In this document: in pieces, positions 24,673 through 62,631 of the stretch | How positions within the stretch are numbered: the stretch's first letter is position 1 | Layout: each line of letters starts with the position of its first letter | Source of the DNA: an uncultured bacterium | Lineage (GTDB): Bacteria; Arandabacterota; Arandabacteria; JAGLYR01 | Reading direction: 5' to 3' | Assembly: GCA_964610505.1 (NCBI GenBank) | Contig: CAZSXU010000014.1 | Coordinates: 4,652-68,651 of the forward strand | DNA length: 64,000 bases | The notes under the pieces: model-generated | Seen by the model: the letters and a program-made list of their open reading frames with translations, nothing else | Told to the model about the DNA's origin: nothing | Database searches by the model: none | Position numbers and translations under genes: made by a program

Positions 24673-24888
24673 GAGCCTCTCCTCGGGTGAGTTCTACCAG
24701 AAAATACTGCGAACCGGGCGCGGCCATTCGTCGGCCGAGCACGGTCAACGTTCGGCAGAGGGTTTGAGTGTACCCGCAATTCATCACAAAACTATCACGC
24801 GATGCGGCTTCCCTCGCGTTCCATTGCCTTCGCTGTTTGATTCTCGCGCCTGGAACGCTCATCGCAACCGTCTGCTGCAGGCGCTGCA

Positions 24889-24920
24889 CAATAGAAAAGG
24901 GCGGACCCGGAAGGCCGCCC
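24889..24920 (-). terminator. Putative intrinsic terminator of the polysaccharide operon
   Basis: Minus-strand reading: GGGCGG..(loop)..CCGCCC stem followed by TTTTCTATTG, about 190 nt downstream of the sulfatase-fold gene stop. Confidence 0.5.
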
Positions 24921-25040
24921 CTGAATTCGATATGATTATGCCACATTCGGCCGGAGAAGTCAATCGGGAAACCCGACAAGGGCAACCACGGATTTCACGG
25001 ATTCCAGAGAGCCATCTTTCCTGCAAGGTGACGAAGATGG

Positions 25041-28282: not shown

Positions 28283-28369
28283 CCCACAAGTGCGCCGGGC
28301 GCAAGTGCGCCGGGCGTCGATGCTCGGGTTCGCCGGCGGACGAAGGGCCCGACATTGAAAGTACAGAAC

Positions 28370-30672: not shown

Positions 30673-30673
30673 C

Positions 30674-33596: not shown

Positions 33597-33683
33597 CGTT
33601 TCAGGGACCCCCGGAACGGCCGGATGTGGCTCCGCGCGCTGCTCGGAACGGGCCGCGGGGATTGCGGCTACGGGGTCACGCGG

Positions 33684-34922: not shown

Positions 34923-35092
34923 GATCGGTCCGCGGCCCGGATCGACGGTGCGGGAACCGGGCGGTTGAAGAACCGTGAGTTCGACATCCGGGCGTTCGGC
35001 CGCCCGGAGCGTTCCCTTACTCTATCCGGGCCGGTGGGGCAAGTCAATTGTAAAGGGGCGCATGGGCGACCCGGAGACTGCGGAACAACGGG

Positions 35093-35159
35093 ATGGCGGG
35101 ACTGCGAGTCAACTGCCAAAAGCCGAGAGCCAGAACACACAGTCCTCGGGCCGGCCGCG
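35093..35159. repeat. Copy B of the degenerate repeated element
   Basis: ACTGCGAGTCAACTGCCAAAAGCCGAGAGCC...CGGGCCGGCCGCG; related to 25041..25100 and 35303..35367. Confidence 0.6.
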
Positions 35160-35302
35160 GTGAAGGTTCGCCGGATCGAAAGCCGCAGCGTGGCCTGTTC
35201 GCCCGAGTGAATCGTCGCCCTCCGTGCCGACCTGTATTCCCCTTCACGCTGCGGCAGAGAGACGCCGGACCTTTGCCGCGGCTGGGGGCCCGCGCAGGAA
35301 AC

Positions 35303-35367
35303 GAGACTGCTGGTCAACTACCCAGAAACCGATCGGCGAAGGCCGAAAGCCGGGTCCCCCTGCCCCC
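35303..35367. repeat. Copy C (partial) of the degenerate repeated element
   Basis: GAGACTGCTGGTCAACTACCCAGAAACCGATCGGCGAAGGCCGAAAGCCGGGTCCCCCTGCCCC; 5' half resembles copy B, 3' half resembles copy A. Confidence 0.5.
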
Positions 35368-35505
35368 GCGCCCCAATTCTCTCTCTTGGCTTTGTCCGCC
35401 GATTCGACTATCCTGAGGGCGGCTTCTCGGCACCGAGGCGCCGAGAAGGGATCTCCGTGAAATCCGCGCAATCTGCGGTTGCGCCGTCGGCCTTGAGAGG
35501 TCTTT

Positions 35506-36720
35506 GTGAAGATCCTCTTCGTCACAACCGAAGTCCCCTCCCCGCGCGGGAGCGGGGGGTTGATCGCCAACTACTACCACCTGCGCGGTTTGGTCAGGGA
35601 GGGCCACGAGGTCACCCTCGTTTCCCTGGCGCCGCGAGGCGCGGCCGGGGCGCGCGTTGACATCGACGGGCTCCATCGATCGATGCTCATCCCGGGCGTT
35701 CCGCCGACCACGGTCGGCGGGCTGATGGCGAACGTGTTCCAGAAGGAGCCGTTTCCCATCCGCAAGTACATGAAGGTGGACGCCGGATCGGGCCTTCGGA
35801 CTCTCGCCGTCGAGCATGTCTTCGATCTGGTTCACCTGGCCGGCCTCCACACGGCGCATCTCGCCGAGGATCTTCGAAACGTCGTGCACGGCCCGATGGT
35901 TCTCTACGAACACAACGTGCAGGCGAAAGTGCACGAGTTGTTCTACCGGATGCAGCGGGATCCGCTGAGGCGATGGTACGCACGGCTCCAGTGGAAGAGG
36001 ATGTTGGCTTACGAGGCGGAGGTGTGCCGGCGCTTCGATTGCGTGCTCACTTTCTCCGAGCCGGACGCGGGGAGACTGGCGGGGCTATCGAAGGGCGCCA
36101 GGGTCTCATGGTTGCCTCTTGCCGTGGACGCCGAGAGGTTGTCCAGAATTTCGACGAGCGAGGCGTTCGATGTGCTGTGGATCGGATCTCTCCGGTGGTT
36201 GCCGAACATCGACTCGCTCCGGTGGTTTGCGGATGAGATTGTGCCGAAGATCCTTGCGGGTCGGCCGGAGACATCCGTCGCCGTCGCGGGATCCTCGCCG
36301 CCGCCCTGGCTGAAGAAGCTCGCCGGGCGAAGTCCGCGAATTCGCGTTCTCGGTGAGGTCGATGACGCCTACGACCTCATGGGCCGCTCGAGGCTGATCG
36401 TGGTTCCGCTTCGCATCGGAAGCGGCGTTCGAGTAAAAATCCTCGAAGCGCTTGCGCTTCGCCGCGCGGTTCTGAGCACGACGCTCGGATGCGAGGGGAT
36501 CGAAGTCGAGTCGGGCAAACATCTGGTGGTGGCGGATGATCCGAAGGCGTTTGCCGGCGAGGCAATTCGTCTTCTGGACGACGACCGTCGGCGGAGTGAT
36601 CTCGCCGCGCGTGGTTACGATTTGGTTCTCGCGCGTCACGACTACCGCAAGGTCGGCGCGAAGATGTCGGCACTCTACGAGAGCCTGCGGCAAGGCGACA
36701 CGGTTCAGGCGACACGGTGA
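35506..36720 (+). CDS. Glycosyltransferase family 4
   Basis: GTG start per ORF track; GT-B fold with C-terminal GT4 signature region (RVKILEALALRRAVLSTTLGCEGIEV). Confidence 0.8.
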   Translation: MKILFVTTEVPSPRGSGGLIANYYHLRGLVREGHEVTLVSLAPRGAAGARVDIDGLHRSMLIPGVPPTTVGGLMANVFQKEPFPIRKYMKVDAGSGLRTLAVEHVFDLVHLAGLHTAHLAEDLRNVVHGPMVLYEHNVQAKVHELFYRMQRDPLRRWYARLQWKRMLAYEAEVCRRFDCVLTFSEPDAGRLAGLSKGARVSWLPLAVDAERLSRISTSEAFDVLWIGSLRWLPNIDSLRWFADEIVPKILAGRPETSVAVAGSSPPPWLKKLAGRSPRIRVLGEVDDAYDLMGRSRLIVVPLRIGSGVRVKILEALALRRAVLSTTLGCEGIEVESGKHLVVADDPKAFAGEAIRLLDDDRRRSDLAARGYDLVLARHDYRKVGAKMSALYESLRQGDTVQATR

Positions 36721-39414: not shown

Positions 39415-40833
39415 ATGTCAAAGAACAACTCCATGTTTCATGTGCTCCAGATCCTTGCGATGGCTACCGGACTCGCGGCGGCCGCAGGCTGCGGGGGGGC
39501 TTCGAGTGGCCCCTGGCCCGAGGCCCGTCCTCTCGGGCGAGACCTCGACGCCTACCGGGCGCCTGCGCGTCCGACGTCGGCCTCCGACGCGCCGGCCCGG
39601 AGTTCGGGTGCCGATCCCCCTTCGACCGTCCTTTCCCTGAAAGATGCACTGGCGTTTGCGCTTGAGCGGAGTCCCGAGCTGGCGGCCTCCTCCTGGGAGG
39701 TTCGAGCCGCCGAAGCGAGAGCCGTTCAGGCGGCCTTAAGGCCGAACCCCGAAATCGAGCTGGAGGTCGAGGAATTCGGAGGCACCCACGGCCGGCGGGA
39801 CTTCGACGGGGCCGTCGTGATTCCGGCCGTCACTCAGGAGGTTGAGCTCGGCGGTAAACGCTCCAAGCGAAAGCGGGTTGCTCTCCTGGATACGCAGCTG
39901 GCCGGCTGGGACTACGAGTCCAAACGCCTCGATGTGTACACGGAGGTGAGGATGGCGTTCATTGCCGTACTCGCCGGCCAGGAACGGGTCCTCCTGGCCG
40001 AGGAACTGGTACGGCTGTCCGACGAGGTCTACTCGTCCGTTGCGGAAAGGGTGAACGCCGGGAAGGTTTCCCCGCTTGAAGAGACCAAGGCGAGCGTGAC
40101 TCTCTCCACCAGCCGCATCGAGCGGGACCATGCGAAACGCGATCTTGCCGTGGCGAGAAAGCGGCTTTCGATTACCTGGGGAAATCCATCGCCGACGTTT
40201 GAGAGGGTCGAGGGGCAGCTGGAGTCACCGGGCCAGGTTCCGCCCGTCGAGACGCTGGTCTCCCGGGTTGCCGGGAACCCCGAGGTGGCCCGCTGGACGA
40301 CGGCGATCGAGCAACGTCGTGCCGCCATCGAGATGGAGAAGGCCGGGAGGATTCCGGACCTGACCCTATCGGGCGGCGTCCAGCAGTTCAGGGAAACCGG
40401 CGATCGGGCATTCAAGGTGGGGATCTCCATTCCGTTTCCGATCTTTGATCGCAACCAGGGGGCGGTGAGGGAAACCGAGAGCGCCCTGGCCAAGGCGAAC
40501 GAAGAACGCCGGGCCGTCGAGGTACGGGTTCGCGGCCGGATTCTGGAAACACATGAATTGTTAACGGTAGCTCATTCGGAAGCCCGGAGTCTCGGCGAGG
40601 TGGTTCTTCCGGCCGCCCGCCGGGCGTTTGAGGCTGCCGAGGAGGGCTACCGGAGTGGGAAGCTGGGATACCTGGATGTCCTGGATGCCCAGCGGACCTA
40701 CTTCCAGGTGAAAGAACAGTGGGTCCAGGCGCTCTCGGCCTATCACGGGGCCGTGGCGGAAATGGAACGACTGATCGGCGGGTCCCTCCGGGAAGCGGGC
40801 GGGCTCGAACCAAACCAGGAGAATCAACGATGA
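39415..40833 (+). CDS. TolC-family outer membrane efflux protein (CzcC/CusC-like lipoprotein)
   Basis: Lipobox-like LAAAAGCGG; OEP-type coiled-coil repeats; stop overlaps the adaptor start (ATGA). Confidence 0.85.
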   Translation: MSKNNSMFHVLQILAMATGLAAAAGCGGASSGPWPEARPLGRDLDAYRAPARPTSASDAPARSSGADPPSTVLSLKDALAFALERSPELAASSWEVRAAEARAVQAALRPNPEIELEVEEFGGTHGRRDFDGAVVIPAVTQEVELGGKRSKRKRVALLDTQLAGWDYESKRLDVYTEVRMAFIAVLAGQERVLLAEELVRLSDEVYSSVAERVNAGKVSPLEETKASVTLSTSRIERDHAKRDLAVARKRLSITWGNPSPTFERVEGQLESPGQVPPVETLVSRVAGNPEVARWTTAIEQRRAAIEMEKAGRIPDLTLSGGVQQFRETGDRAFKVGISIPFPIFDRNQGAVRETESALAKANEERRAVEVRVRGRILETHELLTVAHSEARSLGEVVLPAARRAFEAAEEGYRSGKLGYLDVLDAQRTYFQVKEQWVQALSAYHGAVAEMERLIGGSLREAGGLEPNQENQR

Positions 40834-42299
40834 AACGAACGGAGACCTTGGCCCTGGCTGTGGCGGTCTTTCTTTTCGCAGTCTCGGGCGTCCTGTGGCT
40901 CACGAAGCCCGACTCGCCGGGTGTCCCCGCGGCGCACGACGGCGGGGATCATACCGGCGGCGGATTGTGCGGCCACGACCATTCCGCCGAGGCACCGGCG
41001 GACGCGAACGTGCCCGCGTGCGGCCACGACCATTCCGCCGAGGCACCGGCGGAAGACGGCGCACCCTCGTGCGATCATGACCATTCGGGGGAACACGCGC
41101 ACGGCGAAGGCGCGGCGGATCTTGAGATGTCGATCGATGAAATCATGACGACCGAATGCGAGCACGGAGTGGCCACGCATCTCTGCGATGACTGCCGGTA
41201 CGAAGTCGGTGTCGTCAAGGTGGACGAGTCGCTCATTCGAAATCACCCCACCTCCGAAGAGGGACTGATCCGCGTCATCCCGGCTTCCCGATCGGCAACG
41301 CCTTCCGTCTTGCGGGTCACGGGGGAGGTGGGACTCAATGAAAACCAGGCCGTTCGCATCAGCCCGCAGGTCCCCGGCATCATCCGATCGGTGCCCATTG
41401 ACATCGGTGCCCGGGTGAAGAGGGGGGACGTGCTCTTCGAGATCGAGAGCCGGGAGCTGGGGCGGGCCTTCAGTGAGTATGAGAGAAACCGGGCGATGGC
41501 GGATCTGGCCAGGCAGAACTTCGAGCGGGAGAAGACCCTTTTCGACAAGAAGATCTCCTCCGAGTGGGACATGATCGAGACGCAGATGGTCTATAAGGAG
41601 CACGAGACGAATCTCCAGGCGTCGGAGACGGCGCTCCGGGTTCTGGGATTTACGGACGAAGATCTACGGTCGCCGGCAGGACCGACGGGCGCGGCGCGGA
41701 CCGGGCGCCTCCCGGTTCGTTCGCCCATTGACGGCAGGGTCATCGAGAAACAAGCCGTGGTGGGAGAGCGGGTGGACGAAGGCGATGACCTGATGATGGT
41801 TGCGGATCTCGGTGCCGTCTGGGTGTGGGCCGACATCTATGAACAGGATCTGGCGACTCTCATCGAGGCCAGGCGGCACGGTCCGGTACCGGTCGAGGTA
41901 TCCGTGCACGCGTTTCCCGGGTTGGCGTTTCCGGGGGAGATCGACTACGTCGGCGCCGTGATGCAGGAACGAACCCGAACCGTGAAGGTGCGGGCGACGG
42001 TGGCCAACGGGGAAGAGCTTCTTCGCCCCGGGATGTTCTGCGAGATCCGGCTTCTCCTGGGAATCACCGATGCCGCCCTGGCCGTCCCCAAGGCCGCACT
42101 CCTCTCCGACGAGGGCGTCGATTTCATTTTCAAGCATCTGACGGGCAACTGTTTCGTCCGGAGACCGGTGGACCTAGGACGAGAGTTCGAGGGCCGGGTG
42201 GAGGTTCTCGCCGGACTCGGTGCCGGTGAGATGATCGTGACCGACGGCGCATTTCTTCTGAAATCGGATGTCCTGCGCTCGAAGATGGGCGCAGGCTGA
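40830..42299 (+). CDS. RND efflux periplasmic adaptor (CzcB/CusB-like) with His/Cys-rich N-terminal extension
   Basis: Start at ATG 40830 (MKRTETLALAVAVFLFAV). N-terminal CGHDHSAEAPA repeats, then HlyD-type adaptor domains. Confidence 0.85.
   Translation: MKRTETLALAVAVFLFAVSGVLWLTKPDSPGVPAAHDGGDHTGGGLCGHDHSAEAPADANVPACGHDHSAEAPAEDGAPSCDHDHSGEHAHGEGAADLEMSIDEIMTTECEHGVATHLCDDCRYEVGVVKVDESLIRNHPTSEEGLIRVIPASRSATPSVLRVTGEVGLNENQAVRISPQVPGIIRSVPIDIGARVKRGDVLFEIESRELGRAFSEYERNRAMADLARQNFEREKTLFDKKISSEWDMIETQMVYKEHETNLQASETALRVLGFTDEDLRSPAGPTGAARTGRLPVRSPIDGRVIEKQAVVGERVDEGDDLMMVADLGAVWVWADIYEQDLATLIEARRHGPVPVEVSVHAFPGLAFPGEIDYVGAVMQERTRTVKVRATVANGEELLRPGMFCEIRLLLGITDAALAVPKAALLSDEGVDFIFKHLTGNCFVRRPVDLGREFEGRVEVLAGLGAGEMIVTDGAFLLKSDVLRSKMGAG
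40967..41053 (+). repeat. In-frame 51-bp tandem repeat inside the adaptor gene
   Basis: GTGCGGCCACGACCATTCCGCCGAGGCACCGGCGGA occurs twice, 51 bp apart (40967 and 41018), encoding CGHDHSAEAPA twice; a third degenerate unit encodes CDHDHSGEHAHGE. Confidence 0.8.
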
Positions 42300-42341
42300 G
42301 CGGATTAGACGGCAGGCGTGCCCTGCCCTGTGGGGAGAACA

Positions 42342-45300
42342 ATGCTTGACGGCTTTATCAGACTCATACTTGCCCGGCGTTCTCTCGTGCTGATCGGAAC
42401 GGTCGTGCTCGTGATCGCTGGACTCTTCGCGTGGCGGCACCTGCCCGTCGACGCGTTCCCGGACGCCACGAACGTACAGGTGGTGATTCTCACCGAAGCG
42501 CCCGGTCTGGCGCCCGTGGATGTCGAACAACAGATTACGTTTCCCATCGAACTGGCGATGCAGGGTCTCCCGGACGTACGGGAGGTCCGCTCCCTGTCGA
42601 AATCGGCCCTCTCTCAGGTCATCGTGATCTTTGAGGACCATGTCGATACCTACTTCTCCAGACAGCTGGTGTTTGAACGTCTGGAGGCCGCCAAGGATGA
42701 TCTGCCGGATTGGGTCGAGCCCGAGATGGGGCCCATCAGTACAGGCCTGGGGGAGATCTACCAGTATACCCTGGAGAGCGACGTCCGGTCCCCGACCGAA
42801 CTCAGGACCATCCAGGACTGGCTCATCGCCCCCCAACTGCGCCCTGTGGCCGGAGTGAACGAGGTCAACAGCCTCGGCGGGTACGTAAAGCAGTACCACA
42901 TCCTGGTCGATCCCAACCGGTTGCTGAAGTACGGCGTCACGCTTCGAGATGTGGTCGAGGCGGTCGAGAACAACAACGCCAGCGCGGGCGGGAACTTCAT
43001 CGTCAAAGGATGGGAACAGGCCTACGTGCGATCCGTCGGCCTGGTCCAGACGCTGTCGGATATCGAACACATCGTTCTCAAGGCCGCGGACGGAGCGCCC
43101 GTGTTCCTGAGAGACGTGGCCGACGTGGAGGTTGGCGCGGAGACGCGGCAGGGTGCGGTCACGCGGGATGGAAAAGGGGAAACGGTGGCCGGGATGGCCA
43201 TCATGTTGAAGGGGTCAAATTCGAAAGAGGTCGTGGATCGCGTGAAGGAAGCGATCTCCAGAATCCAGGCGGGTCTGCCCGACGACGTGAGAATTTCACC
43301 CTTCTACGACCGGACGGCCCTCATCCAGGCATGCATTCATACCGTGAGCAACGCTCTCCTCCTGGGCGGGATTCTCGTCGTCCTGGTGCTTCTCCTCTTC
43401 TTGGGGAATCTCCGAGGAGCACTGGTTGTTGCGGCGTCTCTCCCGCTCACGGCGTTTATTGCCTTCATCCTCATGGGATGGAGCGGGGTGACCGCCAACC
43501 TCATGAGCCTGGGGGGGCTCGCCATCGCGATCGGCATGATCGTGGACGCGTCGATCATCGTGTCCGAGAACATCTCCCGCCACCTGGCGGAGCGGGGAAG
43601 GCGGACCTCGCCGACCGCCGAGATTGCCTTTGAGGCCGTGCGGGAAGTGGCGAGGCCCGTGATCTTCGCAATTCTGATCATTGTCATCGTGTTTGTTCCA
43701 CTGTTCACGCTGGAGCAGATGGAAGGCAAGATGTTCAAGCCCCTGGCCATGACCATGGTCTTCGCGCTGATCGGCTCACTCCTTGTGGCATTCACGGTGG
43801 TGCCGGCTCTAATGACATGGGTTCCGCGGGGGCGGAAAGGGGAGGAAGACAACCGGATCGTTCGCATGCTCAGGCGGGGATACCGGCCCGCCCTTTCCCT
43901 GGCACTGAAGCATCGATGGCCGACCGTGGTGATCGCCTTGGTCCTTCTCGTCGGGGTCATACTCCTCGTTCCCCATCTCGGCACAGAGTTTCTGCCGCAG
44001 CTCGACGAGGGGGCGATCGCGATCAACGCGACCCGCCTCCCCTCGGCTTCGCTGGACGGATCGGTTGCCGTAGGGACCTTCGTCGAGCAACGCCTCGCCG
44101 AGTTCCCGGAGGTGCAAACGGTCGTGACCAAGACCGGCCGCGCCGAGATCTCCGAAGACCCGATGGGCCCCGAGCAGAGCGACTTCGTCATCATGCTCCA
44201 TCCGAGGAACGAGTGGAAGACCGGTCGTTCCAAGGCGGATCTGGTGGCGGCGATCCAGGAGAACCTGAGCCAGATCCCCGGGCTCCGGCTCTCGTTCTCC
44301 CAGCCGATTGCCCTGCGTGTGAACGAGCTGATCTCCGGCATCAAGAGCGACCTGGCGGTCAAAGTGTTCGGGCCGGATCTGGAGGTTCTCAGGGATACGG
44401 CCAATGAAATCGCCGTCCGGATGCAGGGCGTTCGCGGAGCCGAAGACGTGAAGGTCGAGCAGATCTCCGGATTTGCACAGATTGAGGTCGATATCGATCG
44501 TCGTGAGATTGCCCGTCACAAAATCAACGTTGCGGACATCAACGAGATCATCGAGACGGCCGTCGGGGGCAGGGTGGCGACGACCATCGTAGAAGGGCAG
44601 ATGCGTTTCGCGGCGGCGGTGCGGTTCCCGGAGCCGTTTCGCCGGGACGCTGCTTCGTTGGCGCGAATTCTGGTGCCCGCGCCCGACGGGCGACGGATCC
44701 CCCTGGGGCAGCTGGCGGACATCCGGCAGGTGGAGGCGCCCGGGCAGATCAGCCGGGAGAACAACCTGCGTCGTGTGGTCGTGGAGTGCAATGTCCGCGG
44801 GCGTGACCTGGGCAGCTTCGTGGCGGAGGTTCGGGAGAAATCCCGATCCATCGTCGCGGGGATGCCGGCGGGATACTTCCTGGATTTCGGAGGTCAGTTC
44901 GAGAACCAGCAGCGCGCCATGCGGCGGTTGTCCATCGTCGTTCCCGTTTCCATTCTGCTTATCTTTCTGATGCTCTTTTCCGCCTTCGGTTCCCTCCGGT
45001 CGGCTCTTCTGGTTCTGGCCAATCTGCCGTTCGCTCTCGTTGGCGGAGTGCTGGCCATTTTCCTGTCCGGAATCAACCTCAGTGTCTCGGCCGCCATTGG
45101 CTTCATTGCCGTCTTCGGCATCGCGGTGGAGGACGGCACCGTCATGGTTTCGTTCTTCAACCGATTTCGCGACCAGGGATTGAGCCCGATGGATGCCGTA
45201 CGGAAGGGGTGCGAGGTCCGCTTCACCTCGGTTCTGATGACGACGCTCACGACTCTCCTGGGACTCATGCCCATGTTCTTTGCCCGGGGAAGCGGATCGG

Positions 45301-45428
45301 AAATTCAGCGTCCGCTGGCGGCCGTGGTGTTGGGCGGTCTGGCTTCGGCGCTCGTGCTGACGCTGCTGGTCCTGCCGGTGCTGTATTCCCTCGTGGAAGG
45401 TCGATCGGAGGCGGATGCGGAGACGTAG
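42342..45428 (+). CDS. Heavy-metal efflux RND transporter (CusA/CzcA family)
   Basis: About 1030 aa, 12 TM with two large periplasmic loops, HME-RND type; ATG 42342 with GGGGAG upstream. Confidence 0.9.
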   Translation: MLDGFIRLILARRSLVLIGTVVLVIAGLFAWRHLPVDAFPDATNVQVVILTEAPGLAPVDVEQQITFPIELAMQGLPDVREVRSLSKSALSQVIVIFEDHVDTYFSRQLVFERLEAAKDDLPDWVEPEMGPISTGLGEIYQYTLESDVRSPTELRTIQDWLIAPQLRPVAGVNEVNSLGGYVKQYHILVDPNRLLKYGVTLRDVVEAVENNNASAGGNFIVKGWEQAYVRSVGLVQTLSDIEHIVLKAADGAPVFLRDVADVEVGAETRQGAVTRDGKGETVAGMAIMLKGSNSKEVVDRVKEAISRIQAGLPDDVRISPFYDRTALIQACIHTVSNALLLGGILVVLVLLLFLGNLRGALVVAASLPLTAFIAFILMGWSGVTANLMSLGGLAIAIGMIVDASIIVSENISRHLAERGRRTSPTAEIAFEAVREVARPVIFAILIIVIVFVPLFTLEQMEGKMFKPLAMTMVFALIGSLLVAFTVVPALMTWVPRGRKGEEDNRIVRMLRRGYRPALSLALKHRWPTVVIALVLLVGVILLVPHLGTEFLPQLDEGAIAINATRLPSASLDGSVAVGTFVEQRLAEFPEVQTVVTKTGRAEISEDPMGPEQSDFVIMLHPRNEWKTGRSKADLVAAIQENLSQIPGLRLSFSQPIALRVNELISGIKSDLAVKVFGPDLEVLRDTANEIAVRMQGVRGAEDVKVEQISGFAQIEVDIDRREIARHKINVADINEIIETAVGGRVATTIVEGQMRFAAAVRFPEPFRRDAASLARILVPAPDGRRIPLGQLADIRQVEAPGQISRENNLRRVVVECNVRGRDLGSFVAEVREKSRSIVAGMPAGYFLDFGGQFENQQRAMRRLSIVVPVSILLIFLMLFSAFGSLRSALLVLANLPFALVGGVLAIFLSGINLSVSAAIGFIAVFGIAVEDGTVMVSFFNRFRDQGLSPMDAVRKGCEVRFTSVLMTTLTTLLGLMPMFFARGSGSEIQRPLAAVVLGGLASALVLTLLVLPVLYSLVEGRSEADAET

Positions 45429-56154: not shown

Positions 56155-58242
56155 TCACCGTGTGACATAGAACGTCGTACTTGTCCCCGTCTCGGTACCG
56201 GCCACGGTGTCCTGAATGCTTAGCGTCAGAACGTATCGACCGAACCGCAGGGGCGCGAGATCCAGCGACAGCCGCCGGGGCGAGAATGAGGACGCGCCCT
56301 CGTATGTGAAGGTATTGGCGATGTGAGGTGGGGTTGAGGGCTTTCTCCGGAAGAGCCGGCGGATTCCTTCCCAGAGACCCCCGGCATCTTCGACGTCGAT
56401 CGGAATGACCCGCACGGTTGCCTTGAAACTCGAGCGGCCGCTCCCGTCCAGCGCCAGGCCGTAGACCTCGTAGTAGAAATGGACAGGCTTCGCGCGGCGG
56501 AAGCGGCGGGTCGGCTCCGGCTCGACGGTCAGATCCCCTTTATCGAACGGAGTTCTTCCGGGGGAGGGGCGGATGGCTCTTGCCAGCTGGATGTCGCTGA
56601 TCATCAGACTCGAAGAATCAAAGGCCCTGACGTCAAGCGCCACCTCCGTAAGGCCGATCAGTTCCTCTCGCTCATCCTCCACCGAGATGGCCGCCAGGTA
56701 TCGGCCCGGGAGTAGATTGTAGTCGCTCTGATGAATGAGCGCCCCTCTTCGCACATTCGTCAGCGTGCCGGAGACCTGGGTGATGACGGTGGTGGTTTCG
56801 CGGGCCACGATCTCCCAGTCTTCGTTGTAGATGAGGATTCGTCTCAGGAGTTTCTCCGTCCAGACATCGCCCTCCTTCACGAACCCCAGATCCTCCGCAG
56901 GGACGGCATAGTAGATTTCCTGCCGGGTGATTCCGGGATCGCGGAGGAATGAGCAGGCGTCCGCGATCATTCGAATCTGTGTCCCCTCGTACAGTGGAAG
57001 ATGGAATTCCGGAATCTCGCGGATCATCGTCTCCCAACGCCTCGCATCCGTTCTCCCCTCGTCGAAGGCGAAGCCGAACTGCCCGTCGAGGAAGCGATCG
57101 CGAAACGTGAGCTGGAAATGCTTGCCCTCCATCTCGTAGGTCCACACCTCAACCGGGCGGGGATTGCGCTCGACCTGGTCGTCCTCCATCCCGAGGGCAA
57201 TTTCGTCCTTTCTCAGTTTCCTTTTTGTCTCATCGAGGAAGGAAGCCCGTTCCAGCGGGGGGCCGTACCGGATGTGGGACTGGCCCCGTGCGGAATCCCG
57301 GCCTCGAAGACCGGCCCTGGGAGCTTCGAATCGAAGATCGGCCTGAAGGATACGCCGCCAGTGTTCGAGAAGACGTTCGTTTGCCTCCGTGCTCAGGTCG
57401 GGATCGCGGTTCCGCCACAACCGGCGCCCGAACTCCGCCACGACTGCGGCGTCGGCCTCCCCGGATCCGAGTCCGAGGTTCTCCGCGTACCCGTCGATCC
57501 CGAGAAACAGGGCTCGGCTCTCGCGACTCGTCTCAAGGATGGCGTTCCAGTACGCCTCCTCCGCTTCCTCCAGTTTCCCCCGGCCCTGGAGGGCCGCGCC
57601 ATACTGGAAAAGCGCTTCCGTGTCGGAGGGATCGTCCACGAGGATCCGGAGGAGAGCTTCCTCGGCCATGCCATATTCCTCCAGCTCGTTGGACACCCGG
57701 CCCAGGGTATAGAGCAGATCCCGGTCGGTGGAGCCCTTGTCGTAACCTTGGACAAGGAGGTCGTATGCCTTCCGCAGGTCCTTGTCCTGGTCCCGCCAGC
57801 GCCGGATGTAGATGGCGCCGCATTCCACGTAGGCCTCGGGTCTCTCGGGGGCCACCTCGATGGTCTTCAGAAAAGATTTCTCCGCATACCGGTCGAAGGA
57901 CTGGGCGGCCTGGACCCGACCGAGCGCCAGATGGTAGTCGGCGTTCTGCGGATCGTACCGAATGGCGAGCTCGTATGCCTCGGCCGCCAATCTTCGCGCC
58001 TCGATGGTGTTCAGCCGGAAATAGGCCTCGGCCAGCCGGGCGTGAGCATCGGCGAACTTGTAGTCCTCGTGGACGGCCGCACGGAATTCCTCGATGGCCT
58101 TGTGGGTGTCTCCCTGTTCAAGAAGAGCCACGCCGGCATCGTAGTGAGGGCGGGGTTTTTCGTCCCTGGCCTCGGCCGCGTGGCCGAGACAAATCGCAAA
58201 TGCGATCAGAGAGATCACGACCGCTTGTCGAGAAGTGACCAT
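56155..58242 (-). CDS. TPR + GWxTD-like domain protein (paralog 1), secreted
   Basis: Signal peptide MVTSRQAVVISLIAFAICLGHA; N-terminal TPRs; central FGRRLWRNRDPDL...GLRGRDSARGQSHIRYGPP resembles the GWxTD domain core with W replaced by R. Confidence 0.65.
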   Translation of the reverse strand: MVTSRQAVVISLIAFAICLGHAAEARDEKPRPHYDAGVALLEQGDTHKAIEEFRAAVHEDYKFADAHARLAEAYFRLNTIEARRLAAEAYELAIRYDPQNADYHLALGRVQAAQSFDRYAEKSFLKTIEVAPERPEAYVECGAIYIRRWRDQDKDLRKAYDLLVQGYDKGSTDRDLLYTLGRVSNELEEYGMAEEALLRILVDDPSDTEALFQYGAALQGRGKLEEAEEAYWNAILETSRESRALFLGIDGYAENLGLGSGEADAAVVAEFGRRLWRNRDPDLSTEANERLLEHWRRILQADLRFEAPRAGLRGRDSARGQSHIRYGPPLERASFLDETKRKLRKDEIALGMEDDQVERNPRPVEVWTYEMEGKHFQLTFRDRFLDGQFGFAFDEGRTDARRWETMIREIPEFHLPLYEGTQIRMIADACSFLRDPGITRQEIYYAVPAEDLGFVKEGDVWTEKLLRRILIYNEDWEIVARETTTVITQVSGTLTNVRRGALIHQSDYNLLPGRYLAAISVEDEREELIGLTEVALDVRAFDSSSLMISDIQLARAIRPSPGRTPFDKGDLTVEPEPTRRFRRAKPVHFYYEVYGLALDGSGRSSFKATVRVIPIDVEDAGGLWEGIRRLFRRKPSTPPHIANTFTYEGASSFSPRRLSLDLAPLRFGRYVLTLSIQDTVAGTETGTSTTFYVTR

Positions 58243-58248
58243 GGATTC

Positions 58249-58276
58249 ATTATCCGACTGTAGCCGGGCATGTCAA
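58249..58276 (-). promoter_or_regulatory. Candidate promoter TTGACA-N16-GATAAT ending 6 nt before the ATG (near-leaderless)
   Basis: Minus strand: TTGACA (plus 58271-58276), 16-nt spacer, GATAAT (plus 58249-58254), then gaatcc, then ATG at 58242. Confidence 0.4.
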
Positions 58277-58417
58277 GGTCCGGATACGGACGGGACGGCG
58301 GGTCTGCGAATGGACCCGACGAGGCAACCATTCTGTCATTAAACCCGGCAGTAGCCCGGGCATCCTGCCCGGGATGGCGTCCCCAAGATCCCAGAGGTTT
58401 CGTCGTGTTCGCCTGTT

Positions 58418-58852
58418 TCACAAATGCCTGACGTCGAGGCCGGTTCGGCGCGAAACCGTCTCGGCGAGACGGCTGCGATGACAGCGCCGCACGTCCTTTT
58501 CCACGCAGACGAGAACAGAGGGGGTGGTCTTCACGAGCTCGGCCAGTCGCTCAAGGGCGTCTTCCTGTTCGGGCAGGATTTCGTGCTCGTACTTGTCGAG
58601 GAGATGCTGGTATGACGCGTCATCTGTGAGATTCTTCCGGAGCTCTTTCGGCACGCCGAGGTCCGGCATGTGTACGTACCCGAGGCCGAGCTTCTCTCCG
58701 GTTTCGCTGAATTGCCTCTTGGAGAAACCATATCGCCGGGACACCGGATCGGCTCGCACGTCGACGATACACCGGATGCCCTCTTTCAGAAGCGGGTCGA
58801 AGAAGGCATCAACCGACTTTCCCTCGTAACCCGCTGTGTACACGGCAGGCAT
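58418..58852 (-). CDS. DUF488 family protein
   Basis: 144 aa; YTAGYEGKS...IRCIVDVRADPVSRRYGFSK resembles DUF488 (YeaO-like) by recall. Confidence 0.6.
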   Translation of the reverse strand: MPAVYTAGYEGKSVDAFFDPLLKEGIRCIVDVRADPVSRRYGFSKRQFSETGEKLGLGYVHMPDLGVPKELRKNLTDDASYQHLLDKYEHEILPEQEDALERLAELVKTTPSVLVCVEKDVRRCHRSRLAETVSRRTGLDVRHL

Positions 58853-58884
58853 GGTCTCCTCCTGTGTGTGCTCTGTGCACGCTG

Positions 58885-60933
58885 CTAGCGCGTGATATAC
58901 AGCGATGTGCTCCGCGCGGTTCGTGTGTCGGCCACCAGATCATGCACGCCCACGGTCACACGGTAGACGCCGGGTTTCAGCGTCGTAAGATCCAGCGACA
59001 GGTGCAGGGGGGCGGAGCCGGATGGATACCGGTGCGTGAAAGTACTGGCGATGTGCGGGGGCGTGGACGGTTTCCGGCCGAACAGCCGTCGTGCGGCATC
59101 CCAGAAGCTCTCTTCCTCTTCGACGTCCAGAGGAATCACGCGCACCGTGGACTTGAAGTGGGATTGCGCGCTCTCATCCAGGGCGAGTCCATAGACCTCG
59201 TAGTAGAGATTCACGGGCTTGGAGCGCCGGAAGCGGTGAGAGGGCTCGGGTTCCACGCGCAGGGAGACCTTATTGAACCGGCTCTTGCCCGTGGCGGGCT
59301 TGATCGAGCGGGCCAGCTCGATGTCGCTGATCTCCAGTTCCCGGCCTTCGAAGGTCCGGGCGACGATTCCGACCTCGGTCACTCCCAGCACCTCGGCGGC
59401 GGCGTCTTCCACCTGAACGGCCGCAAGGTAGGTCCCGGGTTTGAGATCGAAGTGGCACTGGTCGACGATCTGGGCGTCCCTCAGCAGCTCAAGGGAACCG
59501 GCCGGCTCGGTGATCACGGTCGTGGATTCCGCCGCCACCACGTGCCAATCCCGATCGTAGATCACGATTCGCCTCTCGAGTTTGCTGCTCCACCCCTCGG
59601 GGTCCTTCCGGAAGTGGAGCTCCCGTCCCGGCACCGTGTAGTAGATTTCCTGGTGTGTCTCACCCCGGATGCGGGAGAAAGAACAGGCGTCCGCGATCAG
59701 GCGAATCTCCTTGCCCTCGTATTCGGGCACGTAGAATTCAGGCAGCTGCCGAACGAGGATCTGCCAGCGCTTGGCCGACCCTCCGTCCTTTTCGGGTTCG
59801 AAGTCGAACGGAAAGCCGAATTCTCCGTTCAAGAAGCGGTCTTCGAATCGGAAGCGGAACCTGTGGCCTCCGATGTGGTAGCTCCACATCTCGTTGGGCC
59901 GGAGATTCTCGGCGATGTAGCAGGTCATCTCCGTCGGCGGACCGTAGCGGACGTAGGATCGGCCCCGGTCGGAGTACCGGCCCTTGAGCCCCGTCTTCTC
60001 CGAGGTGAAGTAGAGGTCCGCCTTGAGAATCCTCCGGTAGTGCTCGAGAAGCCGTTCGTTGACCTGGGTGGCGAGATACGGATCGTGCTCCCGCCAGAAT
60101 CGCCGCGCCAGCTCCGCCGTGCTGTCCGGATCGATCTTGCGAAGAAACCTCTGCAGCGGCTGGGACGCCACCTCTTCGATTCCGAGGAAGACCAACTTGT
60201 CCTGCACGTCCATTGCGGAGATCGCCCGGGCGTACTGAGTTTCCGCCTCCTCCAGCCGCTCCAGGTCATGGAGCGCCAGGGCCATCACGAAGCGCATTTC
60301 CGTGTCGTCCGGGTTCATCTCAAGCGTTCGCGTCGCGATGTCCAGCGCGGTCTCGGGATCCTCCCTCTCTATCGAAAGCCGGGCGAGATGGAACAGGATG
60401 TCGCGATCGGTGGAGCCCCGGTCGGAGGCTTCTTGAAAGCAGTCGTGGGCTCGCTCCAGATCGTCGTCGTACTGGCGGAAGGTGAGCCAGCGACGGATGT
60501 AAATGAGGCCCCGTTCGAGGTAAGCCTCGGTCAGTTCGGGGTCGATCTCGATGGCCTTGCGGAAGCAGGCCTCCGCGTACCGATCGAATGTCTGGTTCAC
60601 GTAGACTCTGCCCAGCGCAAGCTGGTAGTCGGCGTTGTCGGAATCGTACCGAAGGGCCAGACGATACTCTTCGACGGCGAGGCGGCGGCCTTCGATCGTG
60701 TCGAGAGCCGCGTAGGCCTCGGCCAGCTTCGCGTGAGCGTCGGCGAACTTGAAATCCTCGTGTACGGCCCGGCGGAGAGTCTCGATTGCTTCGCTGAAGT
60801 TGCCCTGGTCCAGGAATCTGAGGCCAAGATGGTAGCTGCGCAGGGCCTCGTCGCGGCCGGCGTGCGCCTGCCCTGTGAGAAGAAACACAAGGACTGCCAA
60901 GACTAAGCCAACGTACCGGTGATGGCGGTTCAT
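58885..60933 (-). CDS. TPR + GWxTD-like domain protein (paralog 2), secreted
   Basis: Start set at first ATG 60933 (MNRHHRYVGLVLAVLVFLLTGQAHA) rather than the upstream GTG at 60960, because the conserved promoter lies in between. Core ARRFWREHDPYL...GLKGRYSDRGRSYVRYGPP. Confidence 0.65.
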   Translation of the reverse strand: MNRHHRYVGLVLAVLVFLLTGQAHAGRDEALRSYHLGLRFLDQGNFSEAIETLRRAVHEDFKFADAHAKLAEAYAALDTIEGRRLAVEEYRLALRYDSDNADYQLALGRVYVNQTFDRYAEACFRKAIEIDPELTEAYLERGLIYIRRWLTFRQYDDDLERAHDCFQEASDRGSTDRDILFHLARLSIEREDPETALDIATRTLEMNPDDTEMRFVMALALHDLERLEEAETQYARAISAMDVQDKLVFLGIEEVASQPLQRFLRKIDPDSTAELARRFWREHDPYLATQVNERLLEHYRRILKADLYFTSEKTGLKGRYSDRGRSYVRYGPPTEMTCYIAENLRPNEMWSYHIGGHRFRFRFEDRFLNGEFGFPFDFEPEKDGGSAKRWQILVRQLPEFYVPEYEGKEIRLIADACSFSRIRGETHQEIYYTVPGRELHFRKDPEGWSSKLERRIVIYDRDWHVVAAESTTVITEPAGSLELLRDAQIVDQCHFDLKPGTYLAAVQVEDAAAEVLGVTEVGIVARTFEGRELEISDIELARSIKPATGKSRFNKVSLRVEPEPSHRFRRSKPVNLYYEVYGLALDESAQSHFKSTVRVIPLDVEEEESFWDAARRLFGRKPSTPPHIASTFTHRYPSGSAPLHLSLDLTTLKPGVYRVTVGVHDLVADTRTARSTSLYITR

Positions 60934-60939
60934 ATTCCC

Positions 60940-60967
60940 ATTATCCGCCCGATCACGCACTCGTCAA
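60940..60967 (-). promoter_or_regulatory. Candidate promoter TTGACG-N16-GATAAT ending 6 nt before the ATG (paralogous to 58249..58276)
   Basis: Minus strand: TTGACG (plus 60962-60967), 16-nt spacer, GATAAT (plus 60940-60945), then gggaat, then ATG at 60933. Confidence 0.4.
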
Positions 60968-60984: not shown

Positions 60985-62631
60985 TCAGAAGGGAACTCGC
61001 ACGCCGAGGGTCAGCATGCCCGTCGACGGATCGCCCGTCAGGCTGAGCCCTGCCGAGGCGGATTCGGGACGTTCGGGAACGAGGAGCGCGGCGTCCACCA
61101 GGCTGTAGAGGTAGATTCCCACGGAGGCGGCCAGGAACATCCGGCGGGTCGCCTTTCGGTCCTCGACGCGGTCGTGCCGCCGGTGGGCCTCATCCCAGGC
61201 CGAGGAAATGGTCTCCGGAGACACCTGGTTCAGGTACCGGTTCCAAGCGGTGTCGTATTCCTTCACCGCTTCGTTGTACGCGTCCGTCGTGATGAGGAGA
61301 CCGAACAGGGAACCCAACTGGGCCGCGGGGAGGAGAATGCTCCGAATTCTCTTTTCCTGGTGCCGCTGGCTCCAGCCGGGGATCAGGATTCGATAGAATC
61401 CACCTTCGTCGGACTTCGGGGCCCACTCCGGCTCAAGAAGAATCTCCTCGTTGGGAAGCACGTTTGCCTCGATCTCGATGGTCCGGTAGCCTGGAGCCCG
61501 AAGGCGGAAGGTCCGCATCCCCGCTACGACCGGCTGAGCCAGGACGGGCGCCCGCCACGTTTCCCTGCTCTCATCGAGCAGCGCCACGGTCGCCCCCGCC
61601 GGCGACGTGCCCCGAAGGGTGACGTATCCCCTGAGAGGATTGAGCGTCACGCGGAGATCGGAATTCGCCCCCGGGAGGACATCCGTCCTCAACCGGTACT
61701 CCTCGTACCCGGGAAGGCGGAAGACGAACCGCCGCTCTCCGAGCGGGACCGCCCACCTGAGCGGTGTGGTTCCAAGCAGCTCGCCGTCCATTTCGATCCG
61801 CGCTCCCGGAGGGCTCGAGAGGAGATGAATCGAGGTTCGCTCGGCCTCCAGCTCAACCGCCAGTGTCTCCGAGGCCCCTTCGGTGAATTCGATCGTCTGC
61901 GTCCACACCTGGTGATTCTCGAGATTCAGGGTGACCTCCGTCCGGCCCGGCCGCACGGAGTTGATGATCGCGGGGGTTTGTCCCTTGGGGTGGTCTCCGA
62001 AGTAGACCCGGGCGCCGGCGGGTTCGGATCGAACGACCAGCTTGGCCGGAACCAGAAGACGCGCATCGAGTCTCGATTCCTCCCCGGCCCGAATCTCCAC
62101 GGTTGCACGGTAGTCGGCGAATCCTTCGTGGTGGATTCGAAGATCGTGATCCCCGGCGGGGATCACGGGAAGGTGGAGAGGAGTGTGTCCTTTCTCCTCG
62201 CCGTCCAGAATGACGAGAGCGTCCTCGGGCGTCGAGAACACCCAGAAGGTTCCTCGGCCATCATTGAGCGTGAGTTCAACCGTCGTGAGTTCACCCACAC
62301 CCACGCGCACGCGAGTGGAGGCAAAGAGGCCGGCCTTTTCCGCTTGTACCAGGTGCCATCCCGACTTGAGCGGGAGGGGGGCCAGGGGAGTGACCCCCTG
62401 AAGTTCCGAATCGACTCGAACCCGGGCGCCCGCAGGGTACGTTGTGACGAGGAGATTCCCCAGATCGAGCAGCAGGTCTCCCGGAGGCGGCCCGAACGAA
62501 TTCGCTCCCGCATCCCGGCCGCCGCCCTCAGGGGCCGAGTCGAAACCGAATACCGGCAACGCTGCGAGAACGCCCATCAGCAGGATGAAAGTTCCCGGAA
62601 GCGTCTTGTTGCCGAGCCTGAGAATCTGCAT
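60985..62631 (-). CDS. PEGA domain-containing protein
   Basis: Signal/anchor then at least five P-x-G-A-x-V repeats (YPAGARVRV, PEDALVILDGEEKGHTP, PAGARVYFGDHPKGQTP, PPGARIEMDGELLGTTP, PAGATVALLD) and a C-terminal TM segment. Confidence 0.7.
   Translation of the reverse strand: MQILRLGNKTLPGTFILLMGVLAALPVFGFDSAPEGGGRDAGANSFGPPPGDLLLDLGNLLVTTYPAGARVRVDSELQGVTPLAPLPLKSGWHLVQAEKAGLFASTRVRVGVGELTTVELTLNDGRGTFWVFSTPEDALVILDGEEKGHTPLHLPVIPAGDHDLRIHHEGFADYRATVEIRAGEESRLDARLLVPAKLVVRSEPAGARVYFGDHPKGQTPAIINSVRPGRTEVTLNLENHQVWTQTIEFTEGASETLAVELEAERTSIHLLSSPPGARIEMDGELLGTTPLRWAVPLGERRFVFRLPGYEEYRLRTDVLPGANSDLRVTLNPLRGYVTLRGTSPAGATVALLDESRETWRAPVLAQPVVAGMRTFRLRAPGYRTIEIEANVLPNEEILLEPEWAPKSDEGGFYRILIPGWSQRHQEKRIRSILLPAAQLGSLFGLLITTDAYNEAVKEYDTAWNRYLNQVSPETISSAWDEAHRRHDRVEDRKATRRMFLAASVGIYLYSLVDAALLVPERPESASAGLSLTGDPSTGMLTLGVRVPF

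What the first reader, a model, noticed from the sequence alone, without database searches (positions are those of the whole stretch)
56155..60967. Paralogous TPR + GWxTD-like proteins with W-to-R core variants and conserved near-leaderless promoters
Two ~690-aa secreted paralogs (same strand, separated by a DUF488 gene) share TPR N-termini and a core like ...FWRxxDP...ERLLEHYRRIL...GL[RK]GR[DY]S..RG.S..RYGPP, which I read as the GWxTD domain with the eponymous Trp replaced by Arg in both. Both are preceded by the same promoter architecture, TTGAC(A/G)-N16-GATAAT, ending 6 nt before the ATG, implying leaderless or near-leaderless mRNAs; this also argues that paralog 2 starts at ATG 60933, not the upstream GTG.
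Basis: partly seen in the sequence, partly recalled or inferred. Interest (0 to 1): 0.5.

Follow-up and report, generated by a model that had tools for sequence, protein, structure and literature searches.

The report
Paralogous TPR-GWxTD proteins, leaderless promoters
Two duplicated genes of an uncultured Eisenbacteria bacterium encode exported proteins of a large family of unknown function, and each sits directly behind a conserved promoter placed so that its mRNA should begin at the start codon; this is real and tidy, but it is a new member of known kinds, not a new system.

Summary
Two same-strand paralogs, par1 (56155-58242) and par2 (58885-60933), are 51% identical and flank a DUF488 gene. 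Both have N-terminal TPR repeats and hit TIGR04514 (GWxTD) above its cutoff. An alignment of 201 family domains puts their G-R-x-S-x-R-G column for column on the canonical G-W-x-T-D-R-G, so the Trp-to-Arg reading is correct. That Trp is only moderately conserved, however: 68 of 118 occupied positions.

Both genes carry TTGAC[AG]-N16-GATAAT-N6-ATG, the only two such matches in 64 kb (0.01 expected). Neither has a Shine-Dalgarno sequence, although most neighbouring genes do.

New here:
- The promoter geometry is identical to the base in 7 of the 9 known clade members, covering both paralog lineages, while the spacers vary freely.
- It is absent from 75 distant homologue loci.
- The TGA inside the -35 box closes the reading frame 11 codons upstream, so the ATG is the only start shared by all members.

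This strongly supports leaderless mRNAs and ATG 60933. The protein's function remains unknown. A high-confidence model shows TPR, a GWxTD core and two beta-sandwich domains. Distant relatives often sit next to a TonB-like gene. Interest is modest.

The parts
58885..60933 (-). par2: a 682-aa TPR + GWxTD + two beta-sandwich protein, identical to database protein P0001, starting at ATG 60933
   Evidence: TIGR04514 60.1 bits; PF20094 28.4 bits. AF2 pLDDT 93.4.
60962..60967 (-). par2 promoter -35 hexamer, TTGACG; its TGA is an in-frame stop 11 codons before the ATG
60940..60945 (-). par2 promoter -10 hexamer, GATAAT, followed by an invariant G; 6 nt separate it from ATG 60933
60859..60933 (-). par2 putative Sec signal peptide, MNRHHRYVGLVLAVLVFLLTGQAHA|G
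   Evidence: By inspection. AF2 places helix 2-19 here at lower pLDDT. No predictor was run.
60184..60855 (-). par2 TPR region, about aa 27-250
   Evidence: Pfam TPR_11/16/19/2/8 hits. AF2 helix pairs and Foldseek TPR hits.
59962..59982 (-). par2 GWxTD-motif equivalent, G318-R-Y-S-D-R-G324, with Arg in place of the Trp that names the family
58418..58852 (-). DUF488 gene with its own GGAGG Shine-Dalgarno sequence, 32 nt after the par2 stop; probably co-transcribed with par2; absent from orthologous loci
58355..58373 (-). 8-bp GC-rich hairpin, CCCGGGCA-gga-TGCCCGGG, between DUF488 and the par1 promoter; no U-tract; possibly the end of the par2-DUF488 transcript
   Evidence: The fold of the whole region is not better than shuffles (z -0.14).
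58271..58276 (-). par1 promoter -35 hexamer, TTGACA; its TGA is an in-frame stop 11 codons before the ATG
58249..58254 (-). par1 promoter -10 hexamer, GATAAT, followed by an invariant G; 6 nt separate it from ATG 58242
56155..58242 (-). par1: a 695-aa paralog (P0008) with the same architecture as par2, plus a 21-aa insertion after the GWxTD motif (29-36 aa in the other par1-type members)
   Evidence: TIGR04514 35.7 bits.
57283..57303 (-). par1 GWxTD-motif equivalent, G314-R-D-S-A-R-G320

Best explanation
These are two old tandem duplicates, from a Candidatus Eisenbacteria metagenome genome, of a gene for an exported cell-envelope protein of about 75 kDa.

Each protein has a Sec-type signal peptide, about six TPR repeats, a GWxTD domain and two C-terminal beta-sandwich domains. 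In this whole clade the Trp that names the GWxTD domain is Arg. This is a lineage-fixed substitution at a position that is only moderately conserved, and every strongly conserved family residue is retained.

Each gene has its own housekeeping-sigma promoter, cTTGAC[AG]-N16-GATAATG. The last T of the -10 hexamer lies 7 nt before the A of the ATG. RNA polymerase should therefore start at that A and produce a leaderless mRNA, translated without a Shine-Dalgarno sequence from a 5'-terminal AUG. DUF488 is a later insertion in this lineage; it rides on the par2 transcript with its own Shine-Dalgarno sequence.

What is shown: paralogy, domain membership, the motif register, the promoter sequence and spacing, its conservation, and the absence of a Shine-Dalgarno sequence.

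What is inferred: the transcription start, leaderless translation, export, and a binding or scaffold role in the envelope. In that role the TPR repeats would bind protein, the beta-sandwich domains might bind glycan or protein, and distant relatives would work with a TonB-like partner.
For: Protein:
- TIGR04514 is above its cutoff for both paralogs, and Pfam TPR families hit both.
- A profile of the C-terminal 428 aa finds 8281 cluster representatives at E<=1e-3, most of the best 150 aligned over nearly the whole profile. The GWxTD core plus beta-sandwich region is therefore one conserved module.
- The motif register is established.
- The AF2 model has pLDDT 93.4 and pTM 0.87.

Promoter and leaderless reading:
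- The exact geometry is present in both genes and is unique in the window.
- Neither gene has a Shine-Dalgarno sequence, although most window genes have GGAGG-type ones.
- The same geometry occurs in P0002, P0003, P0006, P0007 and P0009, which are 47-77% identical at protein level and cover both paralog lineages. The only invariant upstream columns are G (3 columns 5' of the box), C-TTGAC and GATAATG.
- All 9 members start with ATG.
- The in-frame TGA of the -35 box lies 11 codons upstream in all 7 members with the exact architecture. Only window par2 has any alternative start.
- None of 75 distant homologue loci has such a promoter at its N-terminal start.
- Published work shows that a -10 motif 6-7 bp upstream of an ORF drives leaderless expression (PMC12340547; PMC3160421).

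Envelope link: a TonB_C-type gene lies directly downstream in 16 of 75 distant loci.
Against: - There are no transcript or protein data, so the transcription start is inferred from geometry alone.
- One orthologue (P0004, L011) has neither the promoter nor a Shine-Dalgarno sequence in the 77 nt available. Another (P0005, L012) has TTGACG-N16-GATAGT with 9 nt before the ATG. The architecture is therefore not obligatory.
- The 16-nt spacer is one base shorter than the E. coli optimum.
- The par2 promoter begins 17 nt after the stop codon of the upstream PEGA gene, so read-through transcripts may also exist.
- No function has been assigned to any GWxTD protein: no relevant paper, no solved relative by sequence, and no fold match for the GWxTD core.
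- The window itself has no TonB-like neighbour beside these genes.
Confidence: 0.72

Rival explanations
1. The promoters are real, but the mRNAs are not strictly leaderless. Either transcription starts a few bases before the ATG (a leader of 1-5 nt), or most expression comes from read-through of upstream genes with initiation independent of a Shine-Dalgarno sequence, as is common in Bacteroidota relatives of this phylum.
For: The par2 promoter abuts the stop codon of the upstream same-strand PEGA gene, in a 51-nt intergenic gap. P0005 has 9 nt between its -10 box and the ATG, and P0004 has no promoter in the 77 nt available. Start-site choice varies by 1-2 nt in known promoters (general knowledge).
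Against: The invariant 6-nt distance in 7 sequences, with a purine at the predicted +1, is the geometry seen in experimentally validated leaderless genes (PMC12340547). This genome plainly uses GGAGG Shine-Dalgarno sequences for most genes, so initiation without one on internal cistrons is not its norm. In the orthologous locus L004 the gap after the PEGA gene is 730 nt, yet the promoter-to-ATG geometry is unchanged.
Confidence: 0.17
2. The shared upstream element is left over from the gene duplication, or is an operator for a regulator, and is not a functional promoter.
For: The paralogs share ancestry, so some upstream similarity could be inherited. No experiment exists.
Against: The proteins have diverged to 51% identity, and the 16-nt spacers and flanks share no invariant base, whereas 13 promoter positions are invariant across 7 sequences from at least 4 different metagenome genomes. 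The conserved bases are exactly the two sigma-70 hexamers at canonical spacing.
Confidence: 0.03
3. The Trp-to-Arg change marks a functional shift in this clade's GWxTD domain, such as a new ligand or a lost ancestral activity, and is not a neutral lineage-specific substitution.
For: Arg is invariant in all 9 clade members in both paralog lineages. The clade scores 729 bits, against 247 bits for the next family member. The Thr is also changed to Ser in 7 of 9 members, and the Asp is lost in 7 of 9 (A in 6, S in 1).
Against: The W column is variable across the family (W 68, R 15, Y 11, P 5, F 4, plus shortened motifs), and Arg arose independently in at least 3 other members. All nearly invariant family residues are kept: W280, D284, P285, N292-E-R294, E297, H298, R301, G324, G331, P333, W350, Y352. 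The model is confident through the motif, with pLDDT 94-97.
Confidence: 0.15

Closest known systems
GWxTD domain-containing proteins (NCBIfam TIGR04514, Pfam PF20094)
   Same: Both paralogs hit the HMM above its cutoff. They keep the W..DP...T..NER..EH..R...RG..[IV][RK][YF]G.P core and the C-terminal module shared by thousands of members. The TPR N-terminus and tandem paralogs are common in the family: 20 of 75 loci hold two or more copies. NCBI already names orthologue P0003 'GWxTD domain-containing protein'.
   Different: The family's name-giving Trp is Arg, the Thr is mostly Ser, and the Asp is often Ala. The clade is small (9 clusters at 90% identity among 5.8 billion proteins) and well separated from the rest (729 against 247 bits). 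par1 falls below the Pfam model's threshold. No TonB-like neighbour is present. The family itself has no known function.
Leaderless genes with a -10 box adjacent to the ORF (Deinococcus-Thermus, Actinobacteria; PMC12340547, PMC3160421, PMC3898074)
   Same: A -10 element ends 6 nt before an ATG, there is no Shine-Dalgarno sequence, and the start codon is ATG.
   Different: Here this is not a genome-wide habit. Only 2 of about 42 window genes show it and most genes have Shine-Dalgarno sequences. Outside this family, related contigs show it at roughly the background rate seen in other phyla. A full consensus -35 box is also present. The organism belongs to an uncultured phylum where leaderless expression has not been described, as far as I found.
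Periplasmic TPR scaffold proteins (PilW/PilF, Tgl, GltE, PrsT, and the TPR regions of BcsC and PgaA)
   Same: A signal peptide followed by a run of TPR repeats. Weak sub-threshold hits to these models, and Foldseek hits to PilF.
   Different: All of these hits are far below the models' cutoffs and reflect the TPR fold only. None of these proteins carries a GWxTD core or the two C-terminal beta-sandwich domains.
Tandem beta-sandwich matrix and binding proteins (Vibrio RbmA, alpha-2-macroglobulin MG domains, Wzt carbohydrate-binding domain)
   Different: Sequence identity is 7-13% and TM-scores are low (0.2-0.36). This is generic fold similarity and is no evidence of shared function.

Membership tests
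GWxTD domain (TIGR04514 / PF20094) | Score above the curated cutoff of the family HMM | tested here: met
   TIGR04514: par2 60.1 bits and par1 35.7 bits, against a cutoff of 28. Pfam PF20094: par2 28.4 bits against 26.9; no hit for par1.
GWxTD domain (TIGR04514 / PF20094) | The literal G-W-x-T-D motif that names the family | tested here: not met
   par2 has G-R-Y-S-D and par1 has G-R-D-S-A, in register with GWxTD in an alignment of 201 domains. The motif is itself variable in the family: W occupies 68 of 118 filled positions.
GWxTD domain (TIGR04514 / PF20094) | The conserved core flanking the motif (W..DP, T..NER..EH..R, RG..I[RK][YF]G.P, W.Y) | tested here: met
   All invariant and nearly invariant columns of the 97-sequence alignment are present in both paralogs.
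GWxTD domain (TIGR04514 / PF20094) | The C-terminal beta-rich module (SDI.LA ... YYE.Y.L ... D) shared with the family | tested here: met
   Profile hits span positions about 1-424 in most of the best 150 representatives. S536, E579, Y581 and D665 are invariant.
TPR repeat proteins | Pfam TPR family hits above threshold and a helix-pair repeat structure | tested here: met
   TPR_11, TPR_16, TPR_19, TPR_2 and TPR_8 are above their gathering scores. AF2 predicts helices across residues 27-250, and Foldseek gives TPR hits with E down to 5e-10.
Leaderless genes | A -10 promoter element ending about 6-7 nt before the start codon | tested here: met
   GATAAT ends 6 nt before the ATG in both genes and in 5 orthologues. 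The positional criterion comes from PMC12340547.
Leaderless genes | No Shine-Dalgarno sequence before the start codon; ATG as the start codon | tested here: met
   There is no GGAG, GAGG or AGGA within 18 nt of the start, whereas most window genes have one. All 9 clade members start with ATG.
Leaderless genes | Transcription start mapped at the first base of the start codon | not testable with these tools
   Needs dRNA-seq, 5'-RACE or in vitro transcription.
Sec-exported proteins | N-terminal signal peptide: a basic n-region, a hydrophobic h-region and an AxA-type cleavage site | tested here: inconclusive
   Seen by eye in all 9 members, for example MNRHHR-YVGLVLAVLVFLL-TGQAHA|G. No signal-peptide predictor was available.
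DUF488 (the intervening gene) | Pfam PF04343 hit above threshold | tested here: met
   106 bits, E 2.5e-30.

The most novel reading that the evidence does not exclude
TPR-GWxTD proteins are the periplasmic component of an uncharacterised, widespread envelope system that works with a dedicated TonB-like energy transducer. That partner is operon-linked in about a fifth of distant loci. In the Eisenbacteria clade the recognition motif has been rebuilt (Trp to Arg), the gene has been duplicated, and both copies have been placed under leaderless promoters. Leaderless promoters could keep them translated when Shine-Dalgarno-dependent initiation is limited, for example under stress or in stationary phase.
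Probability: 0.12. Interest if true: 0.55.

Novelty: new member of a known kind. Interest (0 to 1): 0.33.

Why it matters
The finding gives a clean case, supported by comparative evidence, of gene-specific leaderless expression in an uncultured phylum (Candidatus Eisenbacteria) whose genes otherwise use Shine-Dalgarno sequences. It fixes the correct start codon of par2. It also shows that the residue naming the GWxTD family is dispensable, which matters for anyone using the motif to define the family.

The GWxTD family is large: more than 8000 clusters at 50% identity. It is confidently foldable, entirely uncharacterised, and often linked to a TonB-like gene, so it is a reasonable target for functional work. 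The window's two genes add a variant clade but no new principle.

Tried and rejected
- The genome-contig scan with the full-length alignment chose TPR peptide patterns. It returned almost only unrelated TPR proteins and one orthologue I already had, so it was of no use for the family's taxonomy.
- A second word-indexed protein search with the C-terminal profile added only a few distant members, all named 'GWxTD domain-containing protein' or unnamed.
- Literature search for 'GWxTD' found no relevant paper.
- PDB sequence search with the C-terminal profile gave nothing meaningful: one hit at E 0.033.
- Rfam and tRNA scans of the window found nothing.
- I considered whether leaderless promoters are a general habit of Eisenbacteria. 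Three further candidates exist in related contigs. Excluding the GWxTD family, however, the rate is about the background of 1.2 per 100 kb seen in unrelated phyla, so I do not claim this.
- I considered the conserved ATG inside GATAATG as an upstream start. It is out of frame with the main ORF, and the short ORFs it opens are not conserved (3 codons in par2, 11 in par1), so I rejected it. The invariant G is more simply the first base of a G-rich discriminator.
- I considered a lipoprotein signal for par1 (..FAIC..). The -1 position does not fit a lipobox, so I rejected it.
- The RNA between DUF488 and par1 folds no better than shuffled sequence (z -0.14).
Full report
**1. What is in the sequence**

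On the minus strand the region reads as follows:
- a PEGA-domain gene (60985-62631);
- a 51-nt gap;
- par2 (58885-60933; 682 aa from the ATG, 691 aa from GTG 60960);
- a 32-nt gap;
- a 144-aa DUF488 gene (58418-58852);
- a 175-nt gap;
- par1 (56155-58242; 695 aa);
- a DAGK/YegS-like kinase and an SDF transporter.

par1 and par2 are 51% identical over their full length. The window matches a 146.6-kb contig (ENA ERZ27256778) and JGI contig Ga0180431_10000360. The named orthologues come from Candidatus Eisenbacteria MAGs.

**2. Protein identity**

- NCBIfam TIGR04514 (GWxTD_dom, cutoff 28) scores 60.1 bits for par2 and 35.7 bits for par1.
- Pfam PF20094 passes only for par2, at 28.4 bits against 26.9.
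- Several Pfam TPR families pass their thresholds in the N-terminal 250 residues of both proteins.
- AlphaFold2 on a 97-sequence alignment gives pLDDT 93.4 and pTM 0.87. The model has an N-terminal helix (2-19, lower confidence, the presumed signal peptide), helix pairs from 27 to about 250, an alpha/beta core at about 255-400, and two beta-sandwich domains.
- Nothing matched the GWxTD core. No solved relative exists by sequence, and no paper mentions the domain.

**3. The Trp-to-Arg claim**

A profile of the C-terminal 428 aa of the nine clade members was run against 1.84 billion cluster representatives.
- It finds 8281 proteins at E<=1e-3 and 517 at E<=1e-30.
- The Eisenbacteria clade is a single representative at 729 bits; the next hit scores 247 bits.

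In an hmmsearch alignment of 201 domains, the window's GRYSDRG and GRDSARG align without gaps to GW[KERQ]TDRG.
- At the W column, W occurs 68 times, R 15 (9 of these are the clade), Y 11, P 5 and F 4.
- 83 rows are gapped at this column. 39 of these lack the whole motif region; the others have a shortened motif such as --WDRRG.
- Arg also occurs in P0075, P0136 and P0137.

Arg is invariant in the clade. All strongly conserved family positions are kept. The substitution is a lineage marker at a tolerant position and is not a striking loss. By the DSSP string, the motif sits at a short turn followed by the N-terminus of helix 322-330, with pLDDT of at least 94.

**4. The promoters**

- TTGACA-N16-GATAAT lies at 58276-58249 and TTGACG-N16-GATAAT at 60967-60940. 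Each ends 6 nt before its ATG.
- The pattern TTGACN-N15-18-GATAAT has exactly these two matches in 64 kb, against 0.01 expected.
- Only five matches of at least 10/12 to the sigma-70 consensus exist in the window, and all are intergenic. Only these two lie within 4-9 nt of the start of an ORF of at least 100 aa.
- Most other genes in the window have GGAGG-type Shine-Dalgarno sequences, DUF488 included. par1 and par2 have none.

**5. Comparative test**

I fetched the contigs encoding the other clade members.

The architecture cTTGAC[AG]-N16-GATAATG-N5-ATG is identical in P0002, P0003, P0006, P0007 and P0009 and in both window genes.
- That is 7 of 9 members, 47-77% identical at protein level.
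- They include both paralog lineages: par2-type (P0001-P0006) and par1-type (P0007-P0009). The par1-type members carry an insertion of 21-36 aa.

In a 7-sequence alignment the only invariant upstream columns are G (3 columns 5' of the box), C-TTGAC and GATAATG; the spacer and flanks vary.

There are two exceptions:
- P0005 has TTGACG-N16-GATAGT with 9 nt before an ATG that lies upstream of the called start.
- P0004 shows no promoter in the 77 nt available.

With this fixed geometry, the TGA within TTGAC is an in-frame stop 11 codons before the ATG in all seven. Only window par2 has any alternative in-frame start, the GTG inside the spacer. All nine start with ATG followed by a signal-peptide-like sequence. 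Public gene calls also use ATG 60933.

None of 75 loci encoding distant family members (21-30% identity) has such a promoter at its N-terminal start.

**6. Is leaderless expression a habit of the phylum?**

Related contigs contain three further candidates: L001:1686(-), L001:4668(-) and L007:5265(+), each with 6 nt before the ATG. Excluding the GWxTD family, the rate is 2-3 per 121 kb. That is comparable to the 1.2 per 100 kb seen in 572 kb from other phyla. The feature is therefore best described as specific to, and conserved in, this gene family.

**7. Mechanism**

In characterised systems, a -10 motif 6-7 bp upstream of an ORF acts as the promoter of a leaderless mRNA. This was validated experimentally in D. 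radiodurans (PMC12340547). A TA-like signal about 10-12 bp upstream of the translation start is the accepted computational mark of leaderless genes (PMC3160421).

Here the last T of the -10 box is at -7 relative to the A of the ATG, which is the canonical start distance (general knowledge of sigma-70 promoters). I therefore infer that transcription starts at the A and that translation begins from a 5'-terminal AUG.

The invariant G after GATAAT, usually followed by a second G, would be the start of a G-rich discriminator. This is inference only. DUF488 lies 32 nt after par2, has its own Shine-Dalgarno sequence, and is probably co-transcribed with it. It is absent from all other orthologous loci, so it was inserted between tandem paralogs that are directly adjacent in L001.

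**8. Function of the proteins**

Function is unknown. My best inference is exported envelope proteins acting as binding or scaffold modules. The grounds are:
- the signal peptide, judged by inspection;
- the TPR repeats;
- the beta-sandwich domains;
- the context of the wider family. A TonB_C-type gene of about 200 aa lies immediately downstream, often overlapping, in 16 of 75 distant loci, and tandem family paralogs occur in 20 of 75.

The window's own neighbours are PEGA, NHL and Kelch proteins, and there is no TonB-like gene beside the pair.

**9. Verdict**

The proteins are members of a known but uncharacterised family; NCBI already labels an orthologue as GWxTD domain-containing. Leaderless genes are a known kind. 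The new content is the clade-wide Arg, the base-exact conservation of a leaderless promoter across an old duplication, and the settled start codon. Interest is modest.

Noticed in passing
L101, L108, L112, L113, L115, L116, L119, L120, L123, L124, L132-L134, L136, L151 (directly 3' of the GWxTD gene); L125 (divergent): In 16 of 75 loci encoding distant GWxTD-family members, a protein of about 200-240 aa is encoded next to the GWxTD gene. It has an N-terminal membrane anchor and a TonB_C domain, and it often overlaps the GWxTD stop codon. This suggests a functional link to a TonB-like transducer.
   Followed up: partly
L098, L107, L108, L110-L112, L114, L118, L121, L123, L137, L138, L140, L149-L151, L153, L154, L167, L170: Tandem copies of GWxTD-family genes are common: 20 of 75 distant loci hold two or three family ORFs. 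Some may be single genes split by frameshifts. The paired arrangement in the window is therefore typical of the family.
   Followed up: partly
window 60963-60965 and 58272-58274 (minus strand); same position in L001, L004, L007, L010: The TGA inside the -35 hexamer TTGAC is in frame with the gene, exactly 11 codons before the ATG, in all seven sequences with the conserved architecture. The promoter itself therefore blocks any longer N-terminal extension.
   Followed up: yes
L001:1686(-), L001:4668(-), L007:5265(+): Three other genes on related Eisenbacteria contigs have a sigma-70-like promoter ending 6 nt before an ATG, so they are candidate leaderless genes. They encode a PTPS_related membrane protein, an AAA_14/DUF4143 ATPase and an ABATE/zf-CGNR protein. 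For two of them the ATG lies a few codons upstream of the called start.
   Followed up: partly
L011:1-77 (P0004) and L012:100-183 (P0005): Two orthologues depart from the conserved promoter. P0004 has neither a promoter nor a Shine-Dalgarno sequence in the 77 nt available. P0005 has TTGACG-N16-GATAGT with 9 nt before an ATG that lies 11 codons upstream of the database start, so its called start is probably too short.
   Followed up: partly
window 24693-24963 (minus strand): A strong promoter-like site (TTGACT-N17-CATAAT) is followed within about 15 nt by a GC-rich hairpin and a T-run (GGGCGGCC-ttcc-GGGTCCGCCC-TTTT). It lies about 250 nt upstream of the C25 peptidase gene. It could be a small RNA or an attenuator. 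Rfam gave no hit.
   Followed up: no
window 20920-24672 (-): A 1250-aa gingipain-like protein with Propeptide_C25, Peptidase_C25, an Ig-like domain and a type IX secretion C-terminal sorting domain. It implies that this Eisenbacterium has a T9SS.
   Followed up: no
window about 27089-36720: A surface-polysaccharide gene cluster: GT2, GT9 and GT4 glycosyltransferases, a Wzx-type flippase, a Wzy_C/O-antigen-ligase-like protein and a Wzz/GNVR chain-length protein. A sulfatase-family protein lies next to it at 25113-27233.
   Followed up: no
window 39415-45428 (+): A complete RND efflux operon with an outer-membrane factor, a HlyD-type adaptor and an AcrB-family pump. It is preceded by a strong promoter-like site at 38774 (TTGACA-N17-TATACT).
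   Followed up: no
window 58418-58852 (-): The DUF488 gene between the paralogs is absent from every orthologous locus examined. In L001 the two paralogs are adjacent, with a 398-nt gap. In L004, L010 and L011 the par2-type gene is followed directly by the DAGK-like gene. In the L004 lineage the par1-type gene lies on separate contigs (L007/L008).
   Followed up: yes
window par1 residues about 338-365 (nt about 57148-57231); P0007 and P0009 at the same place: All par1-type proteins carry a charged insertion of 21-36 aa (ETKRKLRKDEIALGMEDD... in par1) between the RYGPP segment and the following beta-strands. This lowers their GWxTD HMM scores.
   Followed up: partly
window 58355-58373 (-): A perfect 8-bp GC hairpin (CCCGGGCA-gga-TGCCCGGG) without a U-tract lies between the DUF488 stop codon and the par1 promoter. 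It may end the par2-DUF488 transcript. The surrounding RNA folds no better than shuffled sequence.
   Followed up: partly
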